From: Caldicoprobacterales bacterium
GTDB taxonomy: Bacteria; Bacillota; Clostridia; Caldicoprobacterales; UBA3941
DNA length: 64,000 nt
Assembly (NCBI GenBank): GCA_050949255.1
Contig: JBMNFJ010000016.1
Location: 787,809 to 851,808 of the forward strand
Direction: 5' to 3'
Notes under the pieces: generated by a model
The model's input: only the letters and a program-made list of their open reading frames with translations
Database searches by the model: none
Told to the model about the DNA's origin: nothing
Program-made: the position numbers and the translations under genes
Shown here: in pieces, positions 858 through 29,968 of the stretch
Layout: every line of letters starts with the position of its first letter
Numbering within the stretch: the stretch's first letter is position 1

Positions 858-933
858 TGGTGGGCCATCAGGGACTCGAACCCGGGACGCCCTGATTAAG
901 AGTCAGGTGCTCTACCAACTGAGCTAATGGCCC
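858..933 (-). tRNA. tRNA-Lys(CTT)
   Basis: Reverse complement GGGCCATTAGCTCAGTTGGTAGAGCACCTGACTCTTAATCAGG...CCCACCA folds as a cloverleaf. Anticodon loop is CTCTTAA and CCA is encoded. One C-U mismatch in the T stem. Confidence 0.85.
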
Positions 934-956
934 TCATAAAACAAATTAACTACTGA

Positions 957-1033
957 TGGCGCGCCCAGTAGGATTTGAACCTACGACCTCCAGATTCGAA
1001 GTCTGTAACTCTATCCAGCTGAGCTATGGGCGC
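957..1033 (-). tRNA. tRNA-Arg(TCG)
   Basis: Reverse complement GCGCCCATAGCTCAGCTGGATAGAGTTACAGACTTCGAATCTGG...GGGCGCGCCA. Anticodon loop CTTCGAA. Confidence 0.85.
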
Positions 1034-1037
1034 ATAT

Positions 1038-1111
<74 letters not shown>

Positions 1112-1115
1112 ATTT

Positions 1116-1190
1116 TGGAGCGGAAGACGGGATTCGAACCCGCGACATTCGCCTTGGCAAGGCGACGCTCTACCACTGAGCCACTCCCGC
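1116..1190 (-). tRNA. tRNA-Gly(GCC)
   Basis: Reverse complement GCGGGAGTGGCTCAGTGGTAGAGCGTCGCCTTGCCAAGGCGA...CCGCTCCA. Anticodon loop TTGCCAA. Confidence 0.9.
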
Positions 1191-1226
1191 ATATGATGTA
1201 TGCATAAACCCTATAAAATAAGAGTT

Positions 1227-1311
1227 TGGTGCGGGCGAAGAGATTCGAACTCCCACGCCTCGCGGCACTAGATCCTAAGTCTAGCGCGTCTGCCAGTTCC
1301 GCCACGCCCGC
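1227..1311 (-). tRNA. tRNA-Leu(TAG)
   Basis: 85-nt class II tRNA with a long variable arm. Anticodon stem-loop is CTAGA-CTTAGGA-TCTAG. Confidence 0.9.
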
Positions 1312-1334
1312 AAATAATAGCTATTAAGTTTAGA

Positions 1335-1410
1335 TGGTGACCCATCGGCGACTCGAACGCCGGACTCCTTGATTAAAAGTCAAGTGCTCTACCGACTGAG
1401 CTAATGGGTC
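1335..1410 (-). tRNA. tRNA-Lys(TTT)
   Basis: Reverse complement GACCCATTAGCTCAGTCGGTAGAGCACTTGACTTTTAATCAAGG...GGGTCACCA. Anticodon loop CTTTTAA. Confidence 0.9.
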
Positions 1411-1416
1411 AAAACT

Positions 1417-1491
1417 TGGCTGGGGCGGCAGGATTCGAACCTACGAATGCGGGAGTCAAAGTCCCGTGCCTTACCGCTTGGCTACGCCCCA
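1417..1491 (-). tRNA. tRNA-Gln(TTG)
   Basis: Reverse complement TGGGGCGTAGCCAAGCGGTAAGGCACGGGACTTTGACTCCCG...CCCCAGCCA. Anticodon loop CTTTGAC. Confidence 0.9.
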
Positions 1492-1497
1492 ATTTTG

Positions 1498-1575
1498 TGG
1501 GGTGGGTAACGGGATTCGAACCCACGACCTCCAGAGCCACAATCTGGCGCTCTAACCAACTGAGCTATACCCACC
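1498..1575 (-). tRNA. tRNA-His(GTG)
   Basis: Reverse complement GGTGGGTATAGCTCAGTTGGTTAGAGCGCCAGATTGTGGCTCTGG...ACCCACCCCA. Anticodon loop TTGTGGC, with the extra 5' G typical of tRNA-His. Confidence 0.9.
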
Positions 1576-1693
1576 ACAATTTTTTATTATTTTTTGTCAA
1601 AAGAGATTCTATTTGTTGAAGTTTCAAAAATATAGAATTTCAATTATATCTGTTGATAAATTTTTCTTGAATTAAATTTTTGAAACTTACTAT

Positions 1694-1770
<77 letters not shown>

Positions 1771-1781
1771 ATCTCATCGTC

Positions 1782-1855
<74 letters not shown>

Positions 1856-11523: not shown

Positions 11524-12009
11524 TCAGCCCTTGGGCAGACTATCTTCATCTATCTCTTCATATGTTGGAATTTCCTGGTTTATCACTTCTAGTTGGGTCT
11601 CCAGTAGGCTTTTGAATCGAGTCTTGAAGACCTGAATCTGTTTTCTGTATTCATCAAACTCCCTTCTTATTTCAATCACCTTATCGTTTGCGTCCTGAAT
11701 TATCTTTCTGGCTTTATTCTCCGCTTCATCTATTATTAAATCTGATCTCTTCTGTGCGGATTCCAGGACATCATTGGCCGCCCTCTGAGCAGTAACCAGG
11801 GTTTCCTTTAAGGTATTCTCCATGGTCTTATAATTACTAATTTGATCTGACAACATTCCCAGACGTTCCTTTAGCTCAATGTTTTCTTTATACAACCTTT
11901 CAAATTCTTCGATTATTTCATCTAAAAAACGGTCAACCTCTTCATCATCATATCCTCTAAAGGATCTTGTAAATTCTTTGTTATGTATATCCATAGGTGT
12001 CAATGCCAT
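11524..12009 (-). CDS. divIVA: cell division/polarity protein DivIVA
   Basis: 161 aa. N-terminus MALTPMDIHNKEFTRSFRGYDDEEVDRFLDEI is the DivIVA signature, followed by a coiled coil. Confidence 0.92.
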   Translation of the reverse strand: MALTPMDIHNKEFTRSFRGYDDEEVDRFLDEIIEEFERLYKENIELKERLGMLSDQISNYKTMENTLKETLVTAQRAANDVLESAQKRSDLIIDEAENKARKIIQDANDKVIEIRREFDEYRKQIQVFKTRFKSLLETQLEVINQEIPTYEEIDEDSLPKG

Positions 12010-12175
12010 TTTAGACCCTCCTTTAATTCATTATTTTTGGCTAATCTATATGTAAAAATCAGTACGATATTATTAATAAAAAATAGATCCAATTTAGTTA
12101 TTTCATAAATTTACAATAGCAGTGTTGCTGGAAATTAATTCATTTGTACTAGGTAGATAGTAAACACTTTATTAA

Positions 12176-12460
12176 TTACCTTAAAAGCGAACCTAACAGG
12201 GTAGTTATAATAGATAATGTAAAGTACGCCAATAGGGGCGAAAAATCAATGGGTAACCCTGAGGTATTTAGTTTGCTCGTAAGAGCACGGAAAGGAGACA
12301 CAATAGGTTCAACAAAACGGGCCAAAAAAGCCCTCACTGGATGCATCGGATCCAGAATCCAAGACAATAAGGAATTGAGAACAATGGCCCAGGATAAAAT
12401 ATTCAAAAACCAAATAACGCTATATACTAAATATCTGAAAACTTGATCATGCCCAAACAA
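12176..12460 (-). CDS. yggT: YggT/YlmG family membrane protein
   Basis: 94 aa, two TM segments. TTG start 7 nt after AGGAGG. Sits in the conserved order yggS-sepF-yggT-divIVA. Confidence 0.8.
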   Translation of the reverse strand: MFGHDQVFRYLVYSVIWFLNILSWAIVLNSLLSWILDPMHPVRAFLARFVEPIVSPFRALTSKLNTSGLPIDFSPLLAYFTLSIITTLLGSLLR

Positions 12461-15062: not shown

Positions 15063-15488
15063 TTATTTGGGGCAAATTGACTTTGTAATCTTGACATGGC
15101 TGCCATTTCCATCGAATTGGACTTTACTACATAGGGCATTAACCAGCATCAGGCCTCTGCCCCTTTCGGACAACTTAAAGATGTCGTCTCTTTGATAGCC
15201 CTGACACACACGTTTGTAGTCGAATCCCTGGCCTTCATCCTTAATAAGAATATCCAAAGTTGTTGGATTTACCTCCTCAATAGCTACATTGACTTTTTTG
15301 TTACAAAGGCCCTTGTTTCCATGAAAGATTCCATTGGATATTAGTTCATTTAAGATTAGTCGGAATTCATAATATTCATCTTCTTCTAATTTATTCCATT
15401 CCATAATACAAGCCATCATTTCATTTATTAGACCCCTAACGACAAAGGGGTTGTCGCCTATGATTTGCTTTTTAAAGAGCAACCTCAT
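15063..15488 (-). CDS. RsbW/SpoIIAB-type serine protein kinase (GHKL ATPase) with intact ATP-binding boxes
   Basis: Start moved to MRLLFKK (ATG at 15488, SD GGAGGT). N box ELISNGIFHG, G1 box IKDEGQGFD and G2 box ERGRGLMLV are all present. Confidence 0.75.
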   Translation of the reverse strand: MRLLFKKQIIGDNPFVVRGLINEMMACIMEWNKLEEDEYYEFRLILNELISNGIFHGNKGLCNKKVNVAIEEVNPTTLDILIKDEGQGFDYKRVCQGYQRDDIFKLSERGRGLMLVNALCSKVQFDGNGSHVKITKSICPK

Positions 15489-15608
15489 CAGTACTACCTC
15501 CATAGACCATATAATGAGCGAAAACACAACTATAATATCTGTACCACTTTTACGTATAAATAAAACAGCAAATACGCAAATTGGCTATGAATACAACAAG
15601 CTGATATG

Positions 15609-16370
15609 TTATATGGTCCTCTTTATATAGGATCTAAATCGTTCCAGAAGCCTCCGCTCCATCCGGGATATATACATTTGCGAAACACCAATTTCCTCGG
15701 CAATCTCTTTTTGGCTACGTTCATTATAGAAACGTTCGTATAGTACTTTTCGTTCTGTCTCCCCCAAACCGGCCATTATTTTTTCGATAATATCCCTGTC
15801 TTCAACCCGAGAGTAGTTCTTTTCCTCACGTCCAATCATGGCCATCAGATCTGTTTCATTATCCTCATCAATATAATAGTCCAGGGAGGCAGTATTGGTT
15901 AGGTAGCTAGATTCCATCAATTGTAATACCTCTTCCGAAGAGATATTTAAATATTGACCAATCTCTTCTATTTTAGGACTGCGGCCTAACTGGTTTGATA
16001 AATAGGTTCGGGCATCTTCAACCTTTTTAATCATTTCACCCTCTCTTCGAGGTAAACGTATAATCCTGCTTTTATCACGGAAATGATTTTTGATCTCTCC
16101 TATTATTGTTGGGGTCGCAAAGCTAGAAAACTTATAACCTCTATGGATATCGAACCTTTCAAGAGCCTTTATTAACGCCAATGAAGCAACCTGAAACAAA
16201 TCATCATACTCTATTCCCCTATTTACAAACTTCTTCGCAATAATCTCCGCGATGTAGAGATAATGGTTTACCAACTCGTTTCTAAGTTCAATATCTCGGG
16301 TCTCACAATATTTACGAAGAAGTTCTTCCTTATCTTCAGTTTTTATTGTATCCTTTACCTGTCCACACAT
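15609..16370 (-). CDS. group-3 sigma factor of the SigB/SigF/SigG family (closest by eye to SigB)
   Basis: 253 aa. DDLFQVASLALIKALERFD, FATPTIIGEIKNHFRD and SQMYISRMERR match regions 2-4. The segment PRREGEMIKKVEDARTYLSNQLGRSPKIEEIGQYLNISSEEV parallels B. subtilis SigB. Confidence 0.85.
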   Translation of the reverse strand: MCGQVKDTIKTEDKEELLRKYCETRDIELRNELVNHYLYIAEIIAKKFVNRGIEYDDLFQVASLALIKALERFDIHRGYKFSSFATPTIIGEIKNHFRDKSRIIRLPRREGEMIKKVEDARTYLSNQLGRSPKIEEIGQYLNISSEEVLQLMESSYLTNTASLDYYIDEDNETDLMAMIGREEKNYSRVEDRDIIEKIMAGLGETERKVLYERFYNERSQKEIAEEIGVSQMYISRMERRLLERFRSYIKRTI

Positions 16371-16377
16371 TAATCAA

Positions 16378-16770
16378 TTAGACCCCCAGATTTTTATGCA
16401 TTAATATGGCCTGTATTGTGCCATTATCTATTTTATATTCCACTTTATCCATCATAGAACCCAGAATATATTTGCCCAGTTGAGCTTGATCCAAATCATG
16501 AGTAGAAATATCGTTACTTTTCCAATTCCCCTCCCCCATTATTCTGATGCCTATTACCTTTGGTTCTAGGGAGAAACTAACTAATAGTTTATCAGGACTG
16601 GTTAGTTGATTGATAATCATTATAATTGCTTCAGCAACAGCCATCTTAATGTCTTCAATCTGATCCACATCAAAACCTATTCTAGTTGCCACAGCTGCGC
16701 TGGTTAGTCTGGTGATCATAACGTATTCTGGTTTGGCGGGAACAGACAATGTTATTAAATCACTGTTCAT
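16378..16770 (-). CDS. RsbW/SpoIIAB-like anti-sigma factor with degenerate ATP-binding motifs (predicted pseudokinase)
   Basis: 130 aa. N-terminal half (ITLSVPAKPEYVMITRLTSAAVATRIGFDVDQIEDIKMAVAEA) aligns with RsbW. However, the N box reads EAIIMIINQ (Asn and His lost), the G1 box reads IMGEGNW (Asp lost) and the G2 box reads AQLGKY. Confidence 0.7.
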   Translation of the reverse strand: MNSDLITLSVPAKPEYVMITRLTSAAVATRIGFDVDQIEDIKMAVAEAIIMIINQLTSPDKLLVSFSLEPKVIGIRIMGEGNWKSNDISTHDLDQAQLGKYILGSMMDKVEYKIDNGTIQAILMHKNLGV

Positions 16771-17086
16771 TGTTACCCACCTCTATAGTAAAAATTTTGT
16801 CCAAACCCGTAATCACGAAGATCTTCCTAATATATGGTTTCAAGTTTTGAATTTTAATTTCTCCGTCGTACTCCTTTACCCGTCGTAAGGCGCTGATTAA
16901 CACACCTAATCCAGTACTGTCAATGTAGTTCAAGCCACCACAATCTAGGACAAAATTACCCGAGTGACGTTGTATTAATTGGTGTAGCCTTTCCTTGAAT
17001 TCAGGTGCATTGTAGATATCAATTTCGCCGTCTAAGGATATGTACCATGTTTTAGTTGTAGCATCGAATCTTTCACCCAGTACCAT
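16760..17086 (-). CDS. STAS-domain anti-sigma-factor antagonist (RsbV/SpoIIAA type)
   Basis: 108 aa. Contains the motif NYIDSTGLGVLIS with the phosphorylatable Ser. Overlaps the next gene by 11 nt. Confidence 0.88.
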   Translation of the reverse strand: MVLGERFDATTKTWYISLDGEIDIYNAPEFKERLHQLIQRHSGNFVLDCGGLNYIDSTGLGVLISALRRVKEYDGEIKIQNLKPYIRKIFVITGLDKIFTIEVGNNEQ

Positions 17087-17374
17087 ATTAATTTCCCTCC
17101 CATTTATTACTCATACTATTTATCAAAGATAACATACACTTGTCCATCATCTGCGGTCTATATATTCATTAATTTTATACTTAGGCTAATAATCATATTA
17201 TAACATAAAATCAAAAAAAATGTTTTATATTGAATATAATTGGCTGTATTGAGATAATATATTATAATACCCATAATGGCCGAATATTAACACCTCCAAG
17301 CCTTTGTCCGGATAGGTAAAGTAGTCGTTAAAAATAATCTTAAATCACGATAAAATAATTTTGCATTATTTCAC

Positions 17375-17429: not shown

Positions 17430-17506
17430 CGGGGTGTGGCGCAGTTTGGAAGCGCACGTGCTTTGGGAGCATGGGGCCGGGGGTTCAAATCCCTCCACCC
17501 CGACCA
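17430..17506 (+). tRNA. tRNA-Pro(TGG)
   Basis: CGGGGTGTGGCGCAGTTTGGAAGCGCACGTGCTTTGGGAGCATG...CCCCGACCA. Anticodon loop TTTGGGA. Confidence 0.9.
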
Positions 17507-17526
17507 TATAAGAATTATCCTTATGT

Positions 17527-17601
17527 GGCCCCTTGGTCAAGTGGTTAAGACACCGCCCTTTCACGGCGGTAACAGGGGTTCGAGTCCCCTAGGGGTCACC
17601 A
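17527..17601 (+). tRNA. tRNA-Glu(TTC)
   Basis: GGCCCCTTGGTCAAGTGGTTAAGACACCGCCCTTTCACGGCGG...GGGGTCACCA. Anticodon loop CTTTCAC. Confidence 0.9.
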
Positions 17602-17608
17602 TACATAA

Positions 17609-17685
17609 GGGCCTTTAGCTCAGTTGGTTAGAGCAACCGGCTCATAACCGGTCGGTCCGGGGTTCGAGTCCCTGAAGGCCCACCA
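17609..17685 (+). tRNA. tRNA with CAT anticodon, probably tRNA-Ile2 (lysidine) rather than Met
   Basis: GGGCCTTTAGCTCAGTTGGTTAGAGCAACCGGCTCATAACCGGT...AAGGCCCACCA. The body resembles Ile tRNAs as remembered. Anticodon loop CTCATAA. Confidence 0.8.
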
Positions 17686-17702
17686 TTTTCTTTAATATAA
17701 AC

Positions 17703-17779
17703 GGCCCGGTAGTTCAGATGGTTAGAATGCCAGCCTGTCACGCTGGAGGTCGAGGGTTCGAGCCCCTTCCGGGTCGCCA
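17703..17779 (+). tRNA. tRNA-Asp(GTC)
   Basis: GGCCCGGTAGTTCAGATGGTTAGAATGCCAGCCTGTCACGCTGG...CGGGTCGCCA. Anticodon loop CTGTCAC. Confidence 0.9.
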
Positions 17780-17788
17780 TATTTTTTT

Positions 17789-17864
17789 GCCTCGGTAGCT
17801 CAGTCGGTAGAGCAGCAGACTGAAAATCTGCGTGTCGGTGGTTCGATTCCGCCCCGAGGCACCA
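17789..17864 (+). tRNA. tRNA-Phe(GAA)
   Basis: GCCTCGGTAGCTCAGTCGGTAGAGCAGCAGACTGAAAATCTGC...CGAGGCACCA. Anticodon loop CTGAAAA. Confidence 0.9.
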
Positions 17865-17884
17865 TCTTTTTGCCTAGTTGTCGT

Positions 17885-17972
17885 GCGAAAGTGGCGGAAT
17901 TGGCAGACGCGCTAGATTCAGGTTCTAGTGGGCAAAACGCTCATGGGGGTTCGACTCCCCCCTTTCGCACCA
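17885..17972 (+). tRNA. tRNA-Leu(CAG)
   Basis: 88-nt class II tRNA GCGAAAGTGGCGGAATTGGCAGACGCGCTAGATTCAGGTTCTAG...CTTTCGCACCA. Anticodon loop TTCAGGT. Confidence 0.9.
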
Positions 17973-19027: not shown

Positions 19028-20473
19028 CTAGCTAAAATCTTCCGGGAAAAATTCTCCCAGTGATACAGTCATATCTTCTTTTTGAAATTGTTCTTCTTTT
19101 GCTTTAGGTTTAGCCGGCTCTGGTTTTATTCTTTCTTCAGGTAATAATTCTCTAATGCTAAGACTAATTCTTCTGTTTTCAGAATTAGCATCTAAAACCT
19201 TCACATCGACTTCTTGGCCAATGGTGAGCTCATCTTCTACCTTTTGTATCCTTCTGTTGGCTACTTGCGAAATATGAACTAACCCGTCCACGCCTGGCTC
19301 CAGTTCAATAAATGCACCAAAAGAAGTAATGCGTACTACTTTTCCCTTTACAGTTGAGCCTACAGGGTATTTCTCTTCTACATTATCCCATGGATGGGGC
19401 AAAGTCTGCTTGTAGCCAAGTGAAATCCTTTCTTTCTCGCGATCAACGGCTAAAACAATAACTTCCACATTCTCCTCTTCACTGAGGACCTCTCTAGGAT
19501 CATTTACATGGCCCCAGGATAGATCAGAAATATGGATAAGGCCATCAACGCCACCAATATCAACAAAAGCGCCAAAATTTGTTAAGCGTTTTACTACACC
19601 TTTGATTCGCTGACCTTCTTCAATTGAAGACCAAAGTTTCTGCCGTCTTTCTTCTTCCTCAGCCTCTAGTATAACTCTTTGAGAGGCTACTACTCTCCTA
19701 CGTCTTCTTTCCAGCTCAATTATTCTGAGCCGTAATGTCTTGCCAACAAAAGTGCTAAGATCTTCAACATAACTATTGGAGAGCTGGGAGGCAGGCACAA
19801 AGGCTCTAATATCACCTATCTTTGCGATGACTCCACCTTTTACCGCTTCTGTGCATATACCTTCAAATTCCTCCCCAGTCTCTAACCCTTTTTCTATAGC
19901 TTGCCATGCCCTTTTTCTTTCAACAGATTTACGCGATAGTATTACATTTCCTTCTTCATCCTTAACCTTAAGAACCTCTACTTCTACTTCATCGCCTGGA
20001 TTATACAAATCGAATGGAGTTTGATCTTCATCGAGTATTAGTTCATTCAGCGGTATAATTCCATCAGCCTTATAGCCGATATTGACAATCACTTCAGATT
20101 CGTTGACGGATAGGACCGTTCCTTTTATCATTTGTCCGGATCTTAGGGTTACCATTGTCTCCTCAAAATCTTCCATAGTTATAGCCTCTTCCGGACTATC
20201 ATCCTCTGAATTATTTTCCTGTGCTTCTGTTAATTCATCATCTTCCTGGGAAGCATCATGCTCTTCAGCCTCGACCAAATCCCTGTCCTCTTCCGTAGAA
20301 TCATCTGTTTGCGATTCAATGGTATCATTTTCAACCATGGGGGGATTCTCCCTCTGTGGCATTATTGTCTCTTCATTAATTTCATTAGTTGTCGGCGTTT
20401 CGTTGTCAATGACCTGATTGTCCTTTGGAGCATCATTGACCTTTTCATTGTTGTTTCCTTCAAATGCATTCAT
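19028..20473 (-). CDS. rpsA: 30S ribosomal protein S1 homolog (four S1 domains) with a long acidic N-terminal extension
   Basis: 481 aa. Repeated S1 motifs (G.V..V....V.V..G..G..P). Sits in the conserved cmk-plsC-(ispH)-rpsA neighbourhood. The first 100 aa or so are E/D/N/T-rich low complexity. Confidence 0.85.
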   Translation of the reverse strand: MNAFEGNNNEKVNDAPKDNQVIDNETPTTNEINEETIMPQRENPPMVENDTIESQTDDSTEEDRDLVEAEEHDASQEDDELTEAQENNSEDDSPEEAITMEDFEETMVTLRSGQMIKGTVLSVNESEVIVNIGYKADGIIPLNELILDEDQTPFDLYNPGDEVEVEVLKVKDEEGNVILSRKSVERKRAWQAIEKGLETGEEFEGICTEAVKGGVIAKIGDIRAFVPASQLSNSYVEDLSTFVGKTLRLRIIELERRRRRVVASQRVILEAEEEERRQKLWSSIEEGQRIKGVVKRLTNFGAFVDIGGVDGLIHISDLSWGHVNDPREVLSEEENVEVIVLAVDREKERISLGYKQTLPHPWDNVEEKYPVGSTVKGKVVRITSFGAFIELEPGVDGLVHISQVANRRIQKVEDELTIGQEVDVKVLDANSENRRISLSIRELLPEERIKPEPAKPKAKEEQFQKEDMTVSLGEFFPEDFS

Positions 20474-25031: not shown

Positions 25032-26586
25032 AGTCAAGTCCAAAATAGTGTGTAAAATGCCTCGGTAGTTAAATATTTTGAAATTCTTTAAAACGATATT
25101 TTTTGCACCTTGAAAAACATAAGGCGTTTATGCCGCGAAAGCCTGTTGATACGGTGGAGTCCCCTCTGGTATAATTTAGGGACGGAAATATACCCCCATA
25201 AGGTCATTTCCGCCATAAATGGGTGTCCAGAGGGGGCAGGGGCCCCCGTGTCAATAGGACCGTGGAATAAATGCGAGTTTTAGGCAGCGGGGCTATCCTT
25301 TAATTCTTTGTCCTGTATTTGATAATATAGAGCCATATCAAAGTATTTACGCCCTGTTTGCCATTTTTCATCATGCTCCATCAATAGAGCGCCCATGAGC
25401 CGGATGACAGATGCCGCATTGGGGAAGATTCTAATCACCCGTTCCCGACGACGGATTTCCTGGTTAAGCCTCTCTACACCATTGGTAGTGCGTAGCCGTT
25501 TCCGATACTTCAGGGGCAGTGCAAGAACAGCGGTTATGTCATCAAAGGCCTCGTCCAGTAAAGCTGTAGCCTTTGGTGCTTTGGATTCATAGGTTTTGAT
25601 GATCTGATCCCGAACCTTGCGAGCACTCTCCAGATCAACGGATTCGTAAAGCCGGCGCAGTTCTTCCTTAACTTCAGGCTGCAATGCTTTCGGCGTATGA
25701 TCCAGCATGTTCCTGGAAAAGTGAGTTTGACAACGCTGCCAGCTGGTTCCCTGAAAGTGCCTTCTAACAGCATTGACCAGTCCTTTGTGGTCATCGGAGG
25801 TAACCAGATCAACGTTCTTTAGTCCTCGGTCCTTAAGGGAAGAGAAGAGCTCTCCCCAACTGCTTTCTGATTCGCTGTTGGCTAATTGAAATCCGATGAT
25901 TTCACGATGGCCTTCTTCATTTACGGCTATGGCAATCAGTAAACCTCTTGACTGTATACGGCCATTCTCCCGTACCTTTACATAGATGGCATCCACCATG
26001 AGGAAGGGGTAATGGCACTTTAGAGGTCGTGTTCTAAAGGCTTCCACCATAGGATCCAGATTCTTGCAAAGAGCTGAGACGGTTGATTTGGAAAACTTCT
26101 TCCCACACAGCTCTTCGGTAATTTGCTCTACTTTTCGGGTGGAAACACCATTTATGACCATCTCCATCATTGCCAGAACCAGGGCTTGTTCACTACGCTG
26201 ATAACGGGCAAACAGTTCTGTAGAGAAATGGCCATTACGATGCCTGGGAACCCGCAAAGTGAGTGCACCCACTCGAGTAGTTAACTGTCTATCCCGGAAT
26301 CCATTGCGGTAGGCGGTCCTTCCTTCCGTACGCTCATAGGGCTGGGCTCCTATTTGCTCTGTTGATTGGGATAGGAGTACCTGGTTGAAGATTTCTTCCA
26401 ATAATTTGGAAAATGCTTCATCTCTGCCATTTGATAAAAATAATCCGTGCAAAAGTTCTTCGGTTATTGTAATATTATACTGAGCCATGGTTCATCCTCC
26501 TCGGTTTGGTATTTGTATCGTAACTATATTCTAACCGAGGTTGAGCCTTGGCTCAAATTATTTCTCTTTTTACACCATTATACGGA
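25032..26586 (-). mobile_element. IS256-family insertion sequence (about 1.56 kb)
   Basis: Carries a Mutator/IS256-type transposase. GC content is clearly higher than the flanks. The subterminal core GTGTAAAA is present in inverted orientation at both ends (25050-25057 and 26568-26575) and resembles remembered IS256 termini (GTCCGTATAATTGTGTAAAA). Flanked by the 8-bp direct repeat ATGTGAAC. The exact tips are uncertain because the ends are offset by 7 nt. Confidence 0.75.
25280..26488 (-). CDS. IS256 family transposase
   Basis: 402 aa. MAQYNITITEELLHGLF...RNGFRDRQLTTRVGALTLRVPRHRNG...VSTRKVE...DAIYVKVRENG...SDDHKGL...WQRCQTHF are typical IS256/Mutator transposase blocks. Confidence 0.92.
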   Translation of the reverse strand: MAQYNITITEELLHGLFLSNGRDEAFSKLLEEIFNQVLLSQSTEQIGAQPYERTEGRTAYRNGFRDRQLTTRVGALTLRVPRHRNGHFSTELFARYQRSEQALVLAMMEMVINGVSTRKVEQITEELCGKKFSKSTVSALCKNLDPMVEAFRTRPLKCHYPFLMVDAIYVKVRENGRIQSRGLLIAIAVNEEGHREIIGFQLANSESESSWGELFSSLKDRGLKNVDLVTSDDHKGLVNAVRRHFQGTSWQRCQTHFSRNMLDHTPKALQPEVKEELRRLYESVDLESARKVRDQIIKTYESKAPKATALLDEAFDDITAVLALPLKYRKRLRTTNGVERLNQEIRRRERVIRIFPNAASVIRLMGALLMEHDEKWQTGRKYFDMALYYQIQDKELKDSPAA

Positions 26587-28805: not shown

Positions 28806-29968
28806 TTAGCCGAATAAGTTTAAGAAAACCCCGGCTGCGATAGCGGATCCAATTACCCCAGCGACATTGGGGCCCATGGCATGCATGAGTAAGAAGTTGC
28901 CTGGATTCTCCTGTTGGCCAACTACTTGGGATACACGTGCTGCCATAGGTACTGCTGATACACCGGCAGAACCTATCAAGGGATTAATTTTGCCGCCTGA
29001 TAGCTTACACATAACTTTCCCCAATAGGACGCCTCCTGCCGTACCAAAGCCAAATGCTAATAAGACCCAGTGCAATTATCTTCAGGGTATCAGGAGTAAG
29101 GAAGTTCTCGGCCTTTGCAGTAGCCCCAACGGTTACGCCTAGGAAAATAGTTATTATGTTAATCAATTCGTTCTGTGAAGTTTGACTTAAGCGATCTACC
29201 ACCATAGCTCTCCCTGAAGAGATTGCCCAACATTAACATACCCAATAATGGGGCTGCAGATGGGAGTAATAGTGATCCTAAAACAGTTACAACAATGGGA
29301 AAAATAATCTTTTCTAACTTTGATACAGGGCGTAGCTGTTCCATCACTATTTGTCTTTCTTTCTTTGTGGTTAAAGCCTTCATTATAGGAGGCTGTATTA
29401 TCGGAACCAATGCCATATAGGAATATGCGGCTATAGCTATGGCTCCAAGATATTCCGGCGCCAGTTTAGTGGTAACATATATGGCTGTAGGTCCATCTGC
29501 ACCACCGATTATACCGATAGAAGCAGCTACATTAGCTGGAAATTTCAGTAGTATAGCCAATATAAAGGCAGCAAATATACCTAATTGCGCGGCTGCACCT
29601 AAAAGAAGGCTCTTTGGATTTGCTATTAGAGGCGCAAAATCAGTCATCGCGCCAACACCCATGAATATTAAGGGCGGATATATACCTAACTTTACTCCCA
29701 TGTATAAGTAGTACAATAGCCCGCCAGGCTGGAAGTCATCTTCACCATAGACGCCTACAGGCGCATCATTTAGACCAGCCAAAGGCAGGTTTGCCAGTAG
29801 CATTCCAAAGGCTATGGGTAAAAGGAGTAAAGGTTCATATTCCTTTTTTATGGCAAGGTATATGAGTACAAACGAAACTAAAAGCATTACACCTTGTTGC
29901 CATGACATCTGTGCAAAACCCGTGTCTGATATAAAACCAGTTATTACCTCCATAAATGGTTTATCCAT
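28806..29968 (-). pseudogene. Na+-transporting decarboxylase beta subunit (OadB/MmdB/GcdB family), interrupted by two frameshifts
   Basis: Three consecutive ORFs in three frames (29159-29968, 29005-29205, 28806-29075) together give a full-length beta subunit: ...GNLFRES / [48 protein letters not shown] / [42 protein letters not shown].... The frame changes lie near 29204-29207 and 29055-29060, neither in a homopolymer. Confidence 0.8.

What the first reader, a model, noticed from the sequence alone, without database searches (positions are those of the whole stretch)
15063..17086. Partner-switching module with a degenerate (pseudokinase) RsbW in the operon and an intact kinase displaced downstream of the sigma gene
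Seen: the gene order is STAS antagonist (108 aa), RsbW-like protein (130 aa), SigB/F-type sigma factor (253 aa), a 120-nt gap, then a GHKL kinase (141 aa). The 130-aa protein aligns with the RsbW N-terminal half, which carries sigma and antagonist binding. However, its N box reads EAIIMIINQ instead of EAxxNAxxH, its G1 box reads IMGEGNW instead of DxGxG, and its G2 box reads AQLGKY. It should therefore be unable to bind or hydrolyse ATP. The downstream protein keeps all three boxes: ELISNGIFHG, DEGQGFD and ERGRGLMLV. Established: in RsbV-RsbW-SigB and SpoIIAA-SpoIIAB-SigF systems a single protein both sequesters sigma and phosphorylates the antagonist. Inference: the two functions may be split here between a binding-only anti-sigma factor and a separate kinase. 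Alternatively the module may be locked in one state. I am not aware of this architecture having been characterised.
Basis: partly seen in the sequence, partly recalled or inferred. Interest (0 to 1): 0.62.

Follow-up and report, generated by a model that had tools for sequence, protein, structure and literature searches.

The report
Sigma-factor switch with split anti-sigma and kinase
A spore-forming Clostridium-type bacterium controls a SigB-like sigma factor with an anti-sigma protein that has lost its ATP site and a separate small kinase encoded just after the sigma gene; this four-gene arrangement recurs in every related locus examined and resembles a division of labour so far shown experimentally only in mycobacteria.

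Summary
On the minus strand lie a STAS antagonist (108 aa), an RsbW-like protein (130 aa), a SigB/F/G-family sigma (253 aa), a 120-nt gap and a GHKL kinase (141 aa). The 130-aa protein ("pW") has the full RsbW fold but lacks the Mg-binding Asn, G1 box, ATP lid and G2 box. It keeps the RsbW residues that contact the antagonist.

This is a conserved family, not decay. All 27 loci with such a protein carry the kinase directly after sigma. None of 25 canonical RsbW loci with enough downstream sequence does. The kinase family has 651 clusters, including Thermoclostridium stercorarium DSM 8532 and Ruminiclostridium hungatei DSM 14427.

New here: a conserved SigB-type promoter (GTTTTA-N14-TGGTA) sits in the sigma-kinase gap. 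This suggests sigma-driven kinase synthesis as negative feedback.

The sigma is SigB-like, not SigF. The functional split has a characterised precedent in Mycobacterium smegmatis (RsbW1/RsbW2), so this is a new variant of a known kind. No biochemistry was done, and no phosphatase was found in the window. Whether a canonical spoIIA operon exists in the same genome could not be checked.

The parts
17197..17205 (-). Extended -10 promoter element TGTTATAAT (TGnTATAAT), a housekeeping-sigma type, about 110 nt upstream of the STAS start codon. It is the likely operon promoter.
   Evidence: A TG(n)TATAAT element stands 70-110 nt upstream of the STAS gene in every group A locus whose upstream sequence was inspected. 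The sequence was read. Its function is inferred.
16760..17086 (-). STAS-domain anti-sigma-factor antagonist (RsbV-like, 108 aa). The phosphorylatable Ser57 lies in YIDSTGLG.
   Evidence: PF01740 at 78 bits and TIGR00377 at 87.3 bits against a cutoff of 53.45. The spore_II_AA model scores only 61 bits against a cutoff of 114.75. The DS[TSM]GLG serine is present in every locus examined. Asp23 and Tyr54, the equivalents of the RsbV residues that contact RsbW, are conserved (PMC7340262).
16378..16770 (-). Kinase-dead RsbW-like protein ("pW", 130 aa), the presumed binding-only anti-sigma factor. It is translationally coupled to the STAS gene (11-nt overlap) and to the sigma gene (7-nt gap).
   Evidence: PDB 6M36 RsbW at E = 2e-13. 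The AlphaFold2 model has pLDDT 89 with only about 4 residues where the ATP lid should be. Foldseek best hits are RsbW, SpoIIAB and UsfX. The Asn, G1, lid and G2 elements are lost in all 27 relatives, while R21, D40, K42 and E47 are invariant. The NCBIfam RsbW model scores 70.6 bits against a cutoff of 145.
15609..16370 (-). SigB-like group 3 sigma factor (253 aa)
   Evidence: TIGR02980 SigBFG scores 235.8 bits (cutoff 234.35). Sigma_B scores 177.8, spore_sigF 172.6 and spore_sigG 130.9, all below their equivalog cutoffs.
15542..15566 (-). SigB-type promoter motif GTTTTA-N14-TGGTA in the sigma-kinase intergenic gap. It is the presumed sigma-dependent promoter of the kinase gene.
   Evidence: The invariant blocks TGTTTTA and GTGGTA appear in an alignment of seven intergenic regions. 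The strict motif GTTTWW-N12-15-KGGTA is present in 14 of 15 group A loci and in L074. A GGGTA[AT] or GTGGTA -10 element lies 4-10 nt after the sigma stop codon in all group C and Thermoclostridium-type loci. The whole 64-kb window has only 4 strict matches (about 2 expected), and this is the only well-placed one. Background in related loci is about 0.03 per kb.
15497..15501 (-). Ribosome-binding site GGAGG, 8 nt before the kinase ATG
   Evidence: Sequence read. The GGAGG is invariant in the intergenic alignment.
15063..15488 (-). Stand-alone GHKL serine-kinase-like protein ("KIN", 141 aa) with an intact N box, G1 and G2. It is the presumed kinase of the STAS antagonist.
   Evidence: PF13581 at 57 bits. 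E48, N52, H56, D84, G86, G88, G110 and G112 are invariant across 20 diverse members. The AlphaFold2 model has pLDDT 81.5 with a flexible lid at residues 91-110. Foldseek hits are RsbW, SpoIIAB and a Leptospira GHKL domain. The family has 651 clusters. All 10 sampled contexts and all the species-representative loci place it directly after the sigma gene.

Best explanation
This is a SigB-type partner-switching module in which the two jobs of a canonical RsbW are divided between two paralogous GHKL proteins.

**Proposed roles**
- pW (130 aa) is a kinase-dead anti-sigma factor. It dimerises and sequesters the sigma factor through the conserved N-terminal beta1-alpha1-alpha2 surface.
- The unphosphorylated STAS protein binds pW through the same contacts RsbV makes with RsbW, and displaces the sigma.
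- pW cannot bind ATP, so it cannot switch its antagonist off.
- The separate 141-aa kinase does that job by phosphorylating the conserved STAS serine (Ser57).
- An unlinked PP2C-type phosphatase presumably reverses the phosphorylation.

**Transcription and feedback**
- The first three genes are translationally coupled and are probably transcribed from a housekeeping-type extended -10 promoter.
- The kinase gene has its own conserved SigB-type promoter in the 120-nt gap.
- Free sigma would therefore raise kinase levels, inactivate the antagonist and return sigma to pW. This is a built-in negative feedback.

**What is shown and what is inferred**
- Shown: gene order, loss of the ATP motifs, retention of contact residues, the folds, strict co-occurrence, and the conserved promoter motif.
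- Inferred: every binding and phosphorylation step, the identity of the sigma that reads the promoter, and the existence of a phosphatase.
For: - **ATP site lost.** pW lacks the Asn, G1, lid and G2 elements, in the window and in all 27 relatives examined. Of the 148 nearest 50%-identity representatives, 103 lack all three motifs, with a median length of 129 aa. So this is a large family under selection, not a pseudogene.
- **Binding surface kept.** Pairwise identity in the N-terminal half is 0.55, and 0.46 to B. subtilis RsbW. In the C-terminal half it is 0.29 and 0.20.
- **Antagonist contacts kept.** The RsbW residues that hydrogen-bond RsbV in 6M36 are Arg23, Asp42, Lys44, Glu49 and Tyr118 (PMC7340262). 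They correspond to pW R21, D40, K42 and E47, all invariant, and Y101, always aromatic.
- **Fold.** The AlphaFold2 model (pLDDT 89) is an RsbW fold without a lid. Its best structural matches are RsbW, SpoIIAB and the kinase-less UsfX.
- **Kinase intact.** KIN keeps every catalytic motif across 20 diverse members.
- **Co-occurrence.** KIN follows sigma in 27 of 27 loci with a motif-less RsbW-like protein. These fall in three deep groups and two different genomic contexts. KIN is absent from all 25 canonical RsbW loci that have at least 700 nt downstream. Conversely, all 10 sampled members of the 651-cluster KIN family sit in this module.
- **Phosphosite kept.** The STAS serine is invariant.
- **Kinase promoter.** A conserved SigB-type promoter stands upstream of KIN.
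- **Precedent.** In M. smegmatis, RsbW1 is an anti-SigF without kinase activity, and RsbW2 is a kinase with N, G1 and G2 motifs that phosphorylates RsfB Ser63 and does not bind SigF (PMC7693655).
Against: - There is no experimental evidence for any interaction or phosphorylation, and no multimer modelling was possible.
- No PP2C phosphatase is encoded in the 64-kb window or next to the module in any locus.
- Tissierellia-type SigB operons also carry a degenerate RsbW and a serine-bearing STAS, yet have no adjacent kinase where the contig allows a check. Adjacency is therefore not obligatory, and serine retention does not discriminate between models.
- KIN also keeps equivalents of the RsbV-docking residues and an RsbW-like N-terminal beta-alpha unit. 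A role as a second anti-sigma factor, or as a heterodimer partner of pW, is not excluded.
- The -35 element of the kinase promoter is weak in group C loci, where it lies inside the sigma coding sequence. L004 has no recognisable motif.
- The groups carrying KIN are not resolved as a single clade in the sigma tree (25% bootstrap). One origin or several cannot be told apart.
Confidence: 0.6

Rival explanations
1. The roles are reversed. KIN is the real anti-sigma factor and kinase, a divergent but complete RsbW. pW is a decoy or modulator that binds the antagonist or heterodimerises with KIN, like M. smegmatis RsbW3, a kinase-less RsbW homologue that acts as an anti-anti-sigma factor by binding RsbW1.
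For: - KIN has the full RsbW/SpoIIAB fold, including the N-terminal beta1-alpha1 unit used for dimerisation.
- KIN keeps acidic, basic and catalytic residues at the positions of RsbW D42, K44 and E49.
- A precedent exists for a kinase-less RsbW homologue acting as an antagonist (PMC7693655).
Against: - pW, not KIN, occupies the canonical anti-sigma position. It is translationally coupled between the STAS and sigma genes, which suits stoichiometric synthesis.
- The N-terminal half of pW is 46% identical to B. subtilis RsbW, whereas the N-terminus of KIN is not recognisably similar.
- NCBIfam RsbW models score pW at 70 bits and KIN at 36 bits.
- If KIN is made from a sigma-dependent promoter, it would be scarce before induction, which is a poor arrangement for the primary sequestering factor.
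Confidence: 0.12
2. The module is this lineage's sporulation spoIIAA-spoIIAB-sigF operon in a remodelled form. Under this reading SpoIIAB has lost its kinase function and a separate kinase acts with SpoIIE.
For: - The organisms are spore formers. Spo0A, SpoIVB, SpoIIM, YtfJ and GerM are encoded in the window.
- spoVAC-AD-AEB genes, the usual downstream neighbours of sigF in Clostridia (my own knowledge), lie near the module. They are upstream in L006 and L007, and downstream after a ClpC-like gene in L088-L094.
- The R. hungatei protein is named SigF in one annotation.
Against: - All three proteins fall far below the sporulation equivalog cutoffs: spore_II_AA 61 against 114.75, spIIAB 36.5 against 135, and spore_sigF 172.6 against 321.45.
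- pW scores twice as high on RsbW models as on the SpoIIAB model.
- The sigma is closer to SigB than to SigF or SigG, to the same degree as bona fide Peptostreptococcaceae SigB, and it carries the SigB signature PTIIGEIK/PRR rather than PMIIGEI/VSRSL.
- Its nearest canonical relatives are rsbV-rsbW-sigB operons.
- The operon promoter in group A is a housekeeping-type extended -10 element.
- The internal promoter is SigB-type.
- Surveys of spore formers report sigF in every one and spoIIAA/spoIIAB as highly conserved (10.1101/2022.02.25.481979), so a separate canonical operon is expected.
Confidence: 0.1
3. KIN has a target other than the STAS antagonist. It might phosphorylate pW or the sigma. 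It might act like RsbT as an activator of an unlinked PP2C phosphatase. Or it might serve the downstream genes (the HlyD-like protein in group A, the ClpC-like ATPase in groups B and C).
For: - No direct evidence links KIN to the STAS protein.
- RsbT is a known RsbW paralogue that both phosphorylates STAS proteins and activates a phosphatase (established knowledge of the B. subtilis SigB pathway).
- No terminator was predicted between KIN and the next gene.
Against: - The downstream neighbour differs between contexts (HlyD-like against ClpC-like), while the STAS-pW-sigma-KIN unit is constant.
- No RsbR/RsbS-type or RsbU-type partner lies nearby.
- KIN appears exactly where the operon's own RsbW has lost its kinase site, which is what compensation predicts.
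- The STAS serine is retained.
Confidence: 0.1
4. The module is a decaying or locked relic. pW is a degenerate remnant, the sigma is permanently sequestered or permanently free, and the kinase gene is an unrelated neighbour.
For: Loss of every ATP-binding motif is what a decaying kinase gene would look like in a single sequence.
Against: - pW stays intact, with no frameshifts, across relatives down to about 30% identity, and its N-terminal half is strongly conserved.
- The four-gene order is kept in two unrelated genomic contexts and in cultured species.
- The KIN catalytic residues are invariant.
- The intergenic promoter is conserved.
Confidence: 0.04

Closest known systems
Mycobacterium smegmatis SigF partner-switching system (RsbW1 / RsbW2 / RsfB; M. 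tuberculosis UsfX)
   Same: - An RsbW-family anti-sigma factor without kinase activity is encoded next to the sigma gene.
- A separate RsbW-family protein with intact N, G1 and G2 motifs phosphorylates the STAS antagonist on the conserved serine and does not bind the sigma (PMC7693655).
- Structures of the kinase-less anti-sigma factor with its antagonist (8IH8) and with its sigma (8JZT) are among the fold matches of pW.
   Different: - In mycobacteria the kinase is encoded at a distant locus together with its substrate (rsfB-rsbW2). There are several antagonists and a third RsbW homologue.
- Here a single antagonist, the dead anti-sigma factor, the sigma and the kinase form one compact unit. 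The kinase follows the sigma and has its own SigB-type promoter.
- The lineage is Clostridia, not Actinobacteria. The two splits probably arose independently, but this was not tested.
Canonical RsbV-RsbW-SigB modules of Bacillota (B. subtilis; Clostridioides difficile and other Peptostreptococcaceae)
   Same: - The gene order STAS, RsbW-like, sigma is the same, with translational coupling.
- The sigma is SigB-like.
- The antagonist serine motif DSTGLG is kept.
- The RsbW residues that contact RsbV are kept.
- A SigB-type promoter lies inside the gene cluster.
   Different: - Canonical RsbW is both anti-sigma factor and kinase. It carries EACTNAxxH, DxGxG and EGGLG, is 135-162 aa long, and has 10-18 residues between the G1 and G2 motifs.
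- Here the RsbW-like protein has none of these motifs, and a fourth gene supplies a kinase.
- In B. subtilis the internal SigB-dependent promoter lies upstream of rsbV and drives rsbV-rsbW-sigB-rsbX (my own knowledge). Here the motif lies after the sigma gene and in front of the kinase only.
SpoIIAA-SpoIIAB-SigF of endospore formers
   Same: It uses the same three protein families and the same partner-switching logic. The host is a spore former, and spoVA genes lie nearby in several relatives.
   Different: All three proteins fail the sporulation equivalog models. The sigma and the anti-sigma factor are closer to SigB and RsbW. SpoIIAB is an active kinase.
RsbT of the stressosome pathway
   Same: It is a second small RsbW-paralogous serine kinase, encoded in a sigB cluster, that phosphorylates STAS-domain proteins.
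   Different: RsbT is encoded with RsbR and RsbS, acts upstream through the phosphatase RsbU, and coexists with a fully active RsbW. None of those partners is present here.

Membership tests
RsbW/SpoIIAB-type anti-sigma factor serine kinases (GHKL, Pfam HATPase_c_2): the 130-aa protein | Bergerat alpha/beta fold of RsbW/SpoIIAB | tested here: met
   PF13581 at 40.2 bits against a cutoff of 27.4. The AlphaFold2 model has pLDDT 89, with elements beta1-alpha1-alpha2-beta2-beta3-alpha3-beta4-beta5. Foldseek matches 6M36/6M37 RsbW at E = 1e-10 and TM 0.7-0.9.
RsbW/SpoIIAB-type anti-sigma factor serine kinases: the 130-aa protein | N-box Asn that coordinates Mg-ATP (ExxxNxxxH) | tested here: not met
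   The sequence is EAIIMIINQ, with Met at the Asn position and Gln at the His position. No Asn is present at this column in any of the 27 relatives.
RsbW/SpoIIAB-type anti-sigma factor serine kinases: the 130-aa protein | G1 box (DxGxG), ATP lid and G2 box (GxG) | tested here: not met
   The sequences are GEGNW and QAQLGKY. The segment between the G1 and G2 motifs is 6 residues against 10-18 in canonical proteins. More distant relatives lack even these vestiges.
RsbW/SpoIIAB-type anti-sigma factor serine kinases: the 130-aa protein | Residues that contact the antagonist (B. subtilis RsbW R23, D42, K44, E49, Y118), and a gene placed between the antagonist and sigma genes | tested here: met
   R21, D40, K42 and E47 are invariant and Y101 is always aromatic. 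The gene overlaps the STAS gene by 11 nt and ends 7 nt before the sigma gene.
RsbW/SpoIIAB-type anti-sigma factor serine kinases: the 130-aa protein | Curated equivalog score (NCBIfam RsbW NF003144 and TIGR01924; SpoIIAB TIGR01925) | tested here: not met
   Scores are 70.6 against 145, 68.7 against 155 and 36.5 against 135.
RsbW/SpoIIAB-type anti-sigma factor serine kinases: the 130-aa protein | Binds its sigma factor and is displaced by the unphosphorylated antagonist | not testable with these tools
   This needs binding assays or multimer modelling. No multimer prediction was available.
GHKL serine protein kinases of the RsbW/RsbT/SpoIIAB group: the 141-aa protein | Intact N box, G1 and G2, with a flexible ATP lid | tested here: met
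   E48, N52, H56, D84, G86, G88, G110 and G112 are invariant in 20 diverse members. The lid at residues 91-110 has low pLDDT. PF13581 scores 56.8 bits.
GHKL serine protein kinases of the RsbW/RsbT/SpoIIAB group: the 141-aa protein | Phosphorylates the conserved serine of a STAS partner | not testable with these tools
   This is inferred from co-occurrence with a STAS protein that keeps the DSTGLG serine. An in vitro kinase assay is required.
SigB (general stress sigma factor of Bacillota) | Sequence membership: SigB/F/G subfamily, SigB equivalog, and closer to SigB than to SigF or SigG | tested here: inconclusive
   It passes TIGR02980 (235.8 against 234.35). It fails the Sigma_B equivalog (177.8 against 315), but so do the sigmas of the canonical rsbV-rsbW-sigB operons tested, which score 199-200 bits. 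BLASTP favours SigB (148 bits) over SigF (131) and SigG (117), and the SigB signature is present.
Sporulation SpoIIAA-SpoIIAB-SigF operon | Equivalog scores for all three proteins | tested here: not met
   Scores are 61.3 against 114.75, 36.5 against 135 and 172.6 against 321.45.
Sporulation SpoIIAA-SpoIIAB-SigF operon | It is the only SigF-like module in the genome | not testable with these tools
   Only 64 kb of the genome is available and whole genomes of relatives could not be browsed. No second module lies in the window.
Split partner-switching system of the mycobacterial type (RsbW1 + RsbW2) | A kinase-less anti-sigma factor beside the sigma gene, plus a separate RsbW-family kinase with intact motifs | tested here: met
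   Met at the sequence level only. The functional definition comes from PMC7693655.
Split partner-switching system of the mycobacterial type (RsbW1 + RsbW2) | Kinase encoded at a separate locus in an operon with its STAS substrate | tested here: not met
   Here the kinase gene follows the sigma gene in the same cluster in all 27 loci.

The most novel reading that the evidence does not exclude
The separation is a design feature, not merely a compensated loss. The kinase has been taken out of the anti-sigma/antagonist complex and placed under the control of the sigma it ultimately silences. The module would then behave as a delayed negative-feedback (pulse or timer) circuit, whose off-rate is set by transcription rather than by the ATP/ADP state of the anti-sigma factor.

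The module always occurs in spore formers. It sits next to cell-division genes (ylmE-sepF-yggT-divIVA) or spoVA genes. It could therefore control an unrecognised developmental or envelope programme in a large group of Clostridia.

A more radical version is not excluded. If no canonical spoIIA operon exists in these genomes, this would be a remodelled SigF switch.
Probability: 0.3. Interest if true: 0.75.

Novelty: new variant of a known kind. Interest (0 to 1): 0.58.

Why it matters
- **A natural uncoupling experiment.** In textbook partner switching, one protein both holds the sigma factor and phosphorylates its antagonist. Much of the modelling of SigF and SigB dynamics depends on that coupling: induced release, ADP-locked complexes, energy sensing. 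A widespread natural system that uncouples the two activities shows what the coupling is for.
- **A feedback design.** The kinase appears to be placed under a promoter of the SigB type. This points to a transcriptional negative-feedback design not described for the Bacillus or Clostridioides systems.
- **Directly testable.** The module occurs in cultured, sequenced organisms: Thermoclostridium stercorarium DSM 8532 (AGC69370-AGC69373) and Ruminiclostridium hungatei DSM 14427.
- **An annotation warning.** Proteins labelled "serine/threonine-protein kinase RsbW" in these genomes cannot be kinases. At least about 100 clusters at 50% identity share the defect.

Tried and rejected
- **SigB-type autoregulatory promoter upstream of the STAS gene.** The window has GTTAAT-N13-GGGTAT there, but it is absent even from the 91%-identical relative and from every other locus. 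I treat it as chance. The conserved element there is an extended -10.
- **Regulatory RNA in the leader or the 120-nt gap.** Rfam gave only the tRNAs.
- **Terminator between sigma and kinase.** None was predicted on the coding strand.
- **STAS serine as a discriminator.** I expected loss of the serine where no kinase is adjacent. The serine is present in all groups, including the Tissierellia-type loci, so the test is uninformative.
- **Single origin of the split architecture.** In the sigma neighbour-joining tree, group A has 100% support and groups B+C have 95%. All kinase-bearing groups together have only 25%. The question is unresolved. The first attempt timed out.
- **Canonical spoIIA operon or PP2C phosphatase in the same genome.**
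  - Neither is in the 64-kb window.
  - Whole genomes of relatives cannot be browsed with these tools.
  - Literature searches for T. stercorarium sigF gave nothing usable.
- **Literature on a clostridial pseudokinase RsbW or split SigB module.** Nothing was found.
- **Naming from public annotations.** The names are automated and inconsistent, for example "RpoD", "sigma-B", "SigF" and "stage II sporulation protein". They are not evidence.

Full report
**1. What is in the sequence**

Four minus-strand ORFs occupy 17086..15063.
- A 108-aa STAS protein, 17086..16760.
- A 130-aa protein, 16770..16378. It overlaps the STAS gene by 11 nt.
- A 253-aa sigma factor, 16370..15609, which starts 7 nt later.
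- After 120 nt, a 141-aa protein, ATG 15488..15063. A GGAGG site lies 8 nt before this ATG. The mechanical ORF opens further upstream at GTG 15527.

Pfam and NCBIfam identify these proteins as follows.

| Protein | Best family hits |
|---|---|
| STAS | PF01740; TIGR00377, 87 bits against cutoff 53 |
| 130-aa protein | HATPase_c_2, 40 bits |
| Sigma | TIGR02980 SigB/F/G subfamily, 235.8 against 234.35 |
| 141-aa protein | HATPase_c_2, 57 bits |

Flanking genes:
- Upstream, on the other strand, lie six tRNA genes. Beyond them are CheR and an S1-domain protein.
- Downstream lie a HlyD_2-like protein, YggS, SepF, YggT and DivIVA.
- The window comes from a spore former. Spo0A, SpoIVB, SpoIIM, YtfJ and GerM are present.

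**2. The motif claims hold**

The best solved relative of the 130-aa protein ("pW" below) is B. subtilis RsbW, PDB 6M36, E = 2e-13. The alignment covers residues 4-123 of pW.

| Element | B. subtilis RsbW | pW |
|---|---|---|
| N box | EACTNAVQH | EAIIMIINQ (the Mg-binding Asn is Met) |
| G1 box | DEGDSF | GEGNW |
| Residues between G1 and G2 (lid) | 18 | 6 |
| G2 box | EGGLGLY | QAQLGKY |

- An AlphaFold2 model (pLDDT 89) shows the complete RsbW topology, with only about four residues where the ATP lid should be.
- Its best structural matches are RsbW, SpoIIAB and the mycobacterial kinase-less UsfX.
- The 141-aa protein ("KIN") keeps NELISNGIFHGN, DEGQGF and ERGRGL. Its model has a low-confidence, lid-like segment at residues 91-110. 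It matches the same structures.

**3. pW is a conserved family, not a decaying gene**

- Close homologues at 55-91% identity all carry the same substitutions.
- In 27 proteins of this kind from three deep groups, none has the Asn, G1 or G2 element.
- Conservation is lopsided.

| Region of pW | Pairwise identity | Identity to B. subtilis RsbW |
|---|---|---|
| Residues 1-55 | 0.55 | 0.46 |
| Residues 56-130 | 0.29 | 0.20 |

- The RsbV-RsbW crystal structure paper lists Arg23, Asp42, Lys44/Ser48, Glu49 and Tyr118 of RsbW as the residues that bond RsbV (PMC7340262). Their counterparts in pW are R21, D40, K42 and E47, all invariant, and Y101, always aromatic.
- On the antagonist side, Asp23, Tyr54 and Ser57 are invariant.
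- A full HMMER search of 1.84 billion representatives with the pW profile found 379 proteins at E ≤ 1e-10. Of the best 148, 103 lack all three ATP motifs (median 129 aa) and only 19 keep all three (median 143 aa).

**4. The kinase travels with the dead anti-sigma factor**

- A scan of one genome per species returned 80 loci, each with STAS, RsbW-like and sigma genes in that order.
- All 19 species-level loci whose RsbW-like protein lacks the ATP motifs have a KIN-family gene 30-220 nt after the sigma gene. The window itself does too.
- None of the 25 canonical-RsbW loci with at least 700 nt of downstream sequence has one. Nineteen of those have more than 3 kb.
- A profile search with KIN sequences found 651 clusters.
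- Ten members were sampled across the identity range, from 26% to 52% identity to the window protein. Every one lies directly after the sigma gene of such a unit.
- Two genomic contexts exist.
  - The window's group A is CheR/tRNAs or spoVA, then the module, then HlyD-like, YggS, SepF, YggT and DivIVA.
  - Groups B and C are GreA, LysS, a roughly 290-aa J-domain-like protein, then the module, then a ClpC-like ATPase and spoVAC-AD-AEB.
- Members include Thermoclostridium stercorarium DSM 8532 and Ruminiclostridium hungatei DSM 14427.
- KIN catalytic residues are invariant across 20 diverse members.

**5. A conserved promoter in the gap**

- An alignment of the sigma-KIN intergenic regions shows the invariant blocks TGTTTTA and GTGGTA.
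- In the window this reads GTTTTA-N14-TGGTAC at 15566..15542. It matches the SigB-type consensus GTTTaa-N12-15-GGGtAt (consensus from my own knowledge).
- The strict pattern GTTTWW-N12-15-KGGTA is present in 14 of 15 group A loci and in L074.
- In group C and Thermoclostridium-type loci, a GGGTA[AT] or GTGGTA element lies 4-10 nt after the sigma stop codon, with the -35 region inside the coding sequence.
- The pattern is rare. The whole window has four matches (about 2 expected), and only this one is well placed. Related loci have about 0.03 per kb outside this gap.
- By contrast, the operon's upstream region in group A carries a conserved extended -10 element, TGnTATAAT (17205..17197 in the window).
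- No terminator separates sigma and KIN.
- The simplest reading is that KIN is expressed both by read-through and from a promoter read by the module's own sigma. That gives negative feedback. This step is an inference.

**6. Which sigma?**

| Model or reference | Score for the window sigma |
|---|---|
| NCBIfam Sigma_B | 177.8 bits |
| NCBIfam spore_sigF | 172.6 bits |
| NCBIfam spore_sigG | 130.9 bits |
| BLASTP, B. subtilis SigB | 148 bits |
| BLASTP, B. subtilis SigF | 131 bits |
| BLASTP, B. subtilis SigG | 117 bits |

- None of the NCBIfam scores reaches its equivalog cutoff. The sigmas of the two canonical rsbV-rsbW-sigB operons tested (Clostridioides mangenotii and Geosporobacter) behave the same way.
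A Natribacillus SigB locus is 60% identical to the typed SigB, which supports its accuracy.
- All module sigmas tested from groups A to C and from T. stercorarium are closer to SigB than to SigF or SigG: 148-171, 127-146 and 109-135 bits respectively.
- They carry PTIIGEIK..FRDK...PRR as in SigB, not PMIIGEI...VSRSL as in SigF and SigG.
- pW scores twice as high on RsbW models as on the SpoIIAB model. The STAS protein fails the SpoIIAA equivalog.
- I therefore file the module as SigB-type.
- The repeated proximity of spoVA genes keeps a sporulation link open. Whether a canonical spoIIA operon exists elsewhere in these genomes could not be tested.

**7. Mechanism proposed**

- pW sequesters the sigma.
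- Unphosphorylated STAS displaces the sigma by binding pW.
- KIN phosphorylates STAS Ser57 to reset the switch.
- An unlinked phosphatase reactivates STAS.
- KIN synthesis rises with sigma activity.

The rivals are role reversal or a decoy, a remodelled SigF operon, another KIN substrate, and a relic. They are weighed in the structured fields.

**8. Comparison with what is known**

- The functional split has been shown experimentally in Mycobacterium smegmatis (PMC7693655).
  - RsbW1 binds SigF but has no kinase activity.
  - RsbW2 has N, G1 and G2 motifs, is the only kinase of RsfB (Ser63), and does not bind SigF.
  - RsbW3 binds RsbW1.
- In that system the kinase is encoded elsewhere, together with its substrate.
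- I found no paper describing the clostridial one-cluster arrangement or its kinase promoter.
- The finding is therefore a new variant of a known kind. It is real, widespread and testable in cultured strains, but it is not a new principle.

**9. Limits**

- All functional statements are inferences from sequence, predicted structure and gene neighbourhood.
- The co-occurrence counts are not phylogenetically independent. They do span three deep groups and two genomic contexts.
- Tissierellia-type operons show that a degenerate RsbW can exist without an adjacent kinase.
- No phosphatase was identified.

Noticed in passing
window 12010-12175 (between yggT 12460..12176 and divIVA 12009..11524); L008 5450-5614: ylmH, which lies between yggT and divIVA in relatives L001, L004 and L006, is absent here and in the closest relative L008. 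Only a 166-nt intergenic spacer remains.
   Followed up: partly
window 19028-20473 (-): The S1-domain protein is 481 aa, with an acidic N-terminal region and S1 repeats only. In relatives L001 and L004 the orthologous gene encodes a 741-754 aa LytB(IspH)-S1 fusion.
   Followed up: no
window 25280-26488 (-): An intact Mutator/IS256-family transposase (402 aa, PF00872 at 443 bits) lies between an RpiR-type regulator and a decarboxylase gene cluster.
   Followed up: no
window 29159-29968 (-): The oxaloacetate decarboxylase beta-subunit ORF covers only profile positions 2-225 of 349. It may be truncated or split.
   Followed up: no
L036, L054, L055, L058, L062, L069, L073, L082, L086 (Tissierellia-type); L043, L066 (Caloranaerobacter): These loci show a second kind of degenerate RsbW in otherwise canonical rsbV-rsbW-sigB operons. 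It is 122-142 aa, with the G1 box deleted and the G2 box degenerate. The N-box Asn is kept in most Tissierellia-type proteins and lost in Caloranaerobacter. No kinase gene follows sigma where the contig allows a check (L054, L055, L069), and the STAS serine is still present.
   Followed up: partly
L088-L094, L074, L078 (Thermoclostridium/Ruminiclostridium-type loci): The module is always preceded by a roughly 290-aa protein with no Pfam hit on record in these loci (the R. hungatei orthologue gives a sub-threshold DnaJ match; UniRef calls the T. stercorarium one J domain-containing). In L078 and L088-L094 it is followed by a 763-789 aa ClpC-like double-AAA+ ATPase; for the one scanned with Pfam (L078) no Clp_N domain appeared among the 25 families listed. 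In L088-L094 a roughly 60-aa ORF (a 235-aa ORF before the ATPase instead in L091) and spoVAC-spoVAD-spoVAEB come next.
   Followed up: partly
L006 1-2200; L007 900-2600: In two group A relatives, spoVAC-AD-AEB genes replace the CheR/tRNA region upstream of the module. In L006 they come with DUF1657 and DUF421 genes, a composition that recalls the mobile spoVA2mob heat-resistance operon (my own knowledge).
   Followed up: no
L037 9904-9929: A second SigB-type motif (GTTTAT-N14-GGGTAC) lies in the 85-nt gap between the STAS gene and the RsbW-like gene of this Ruminiclostridium-type locus.
   Followed up: no
window 17273-17297 (-): A near-consensus SigB-type motif, GTTAAT-N13-GGGTAT, lies upstream of the STAS gene. 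It is not conserved even in the 91%-identical relative and is probably chance.
   Followed up: yes
window 858-1855 (-) and 17430-17972 (+): There are two tRNA gene arrays, of ten and six genes. The second is divergently oriented from the module and separates it from cheR.
   Followed up: no
L036, L043 and other canonical sigB loci: Many contigs of species-representative genomes end within a few hundred bases after sigB. At least two of them (L036, L043) carry reverse-strand ORFs there that look like spurious ORFs within rRNA genes. This suggests sigB is followed by an rRNA operon in those lineages.
   Followed up: no
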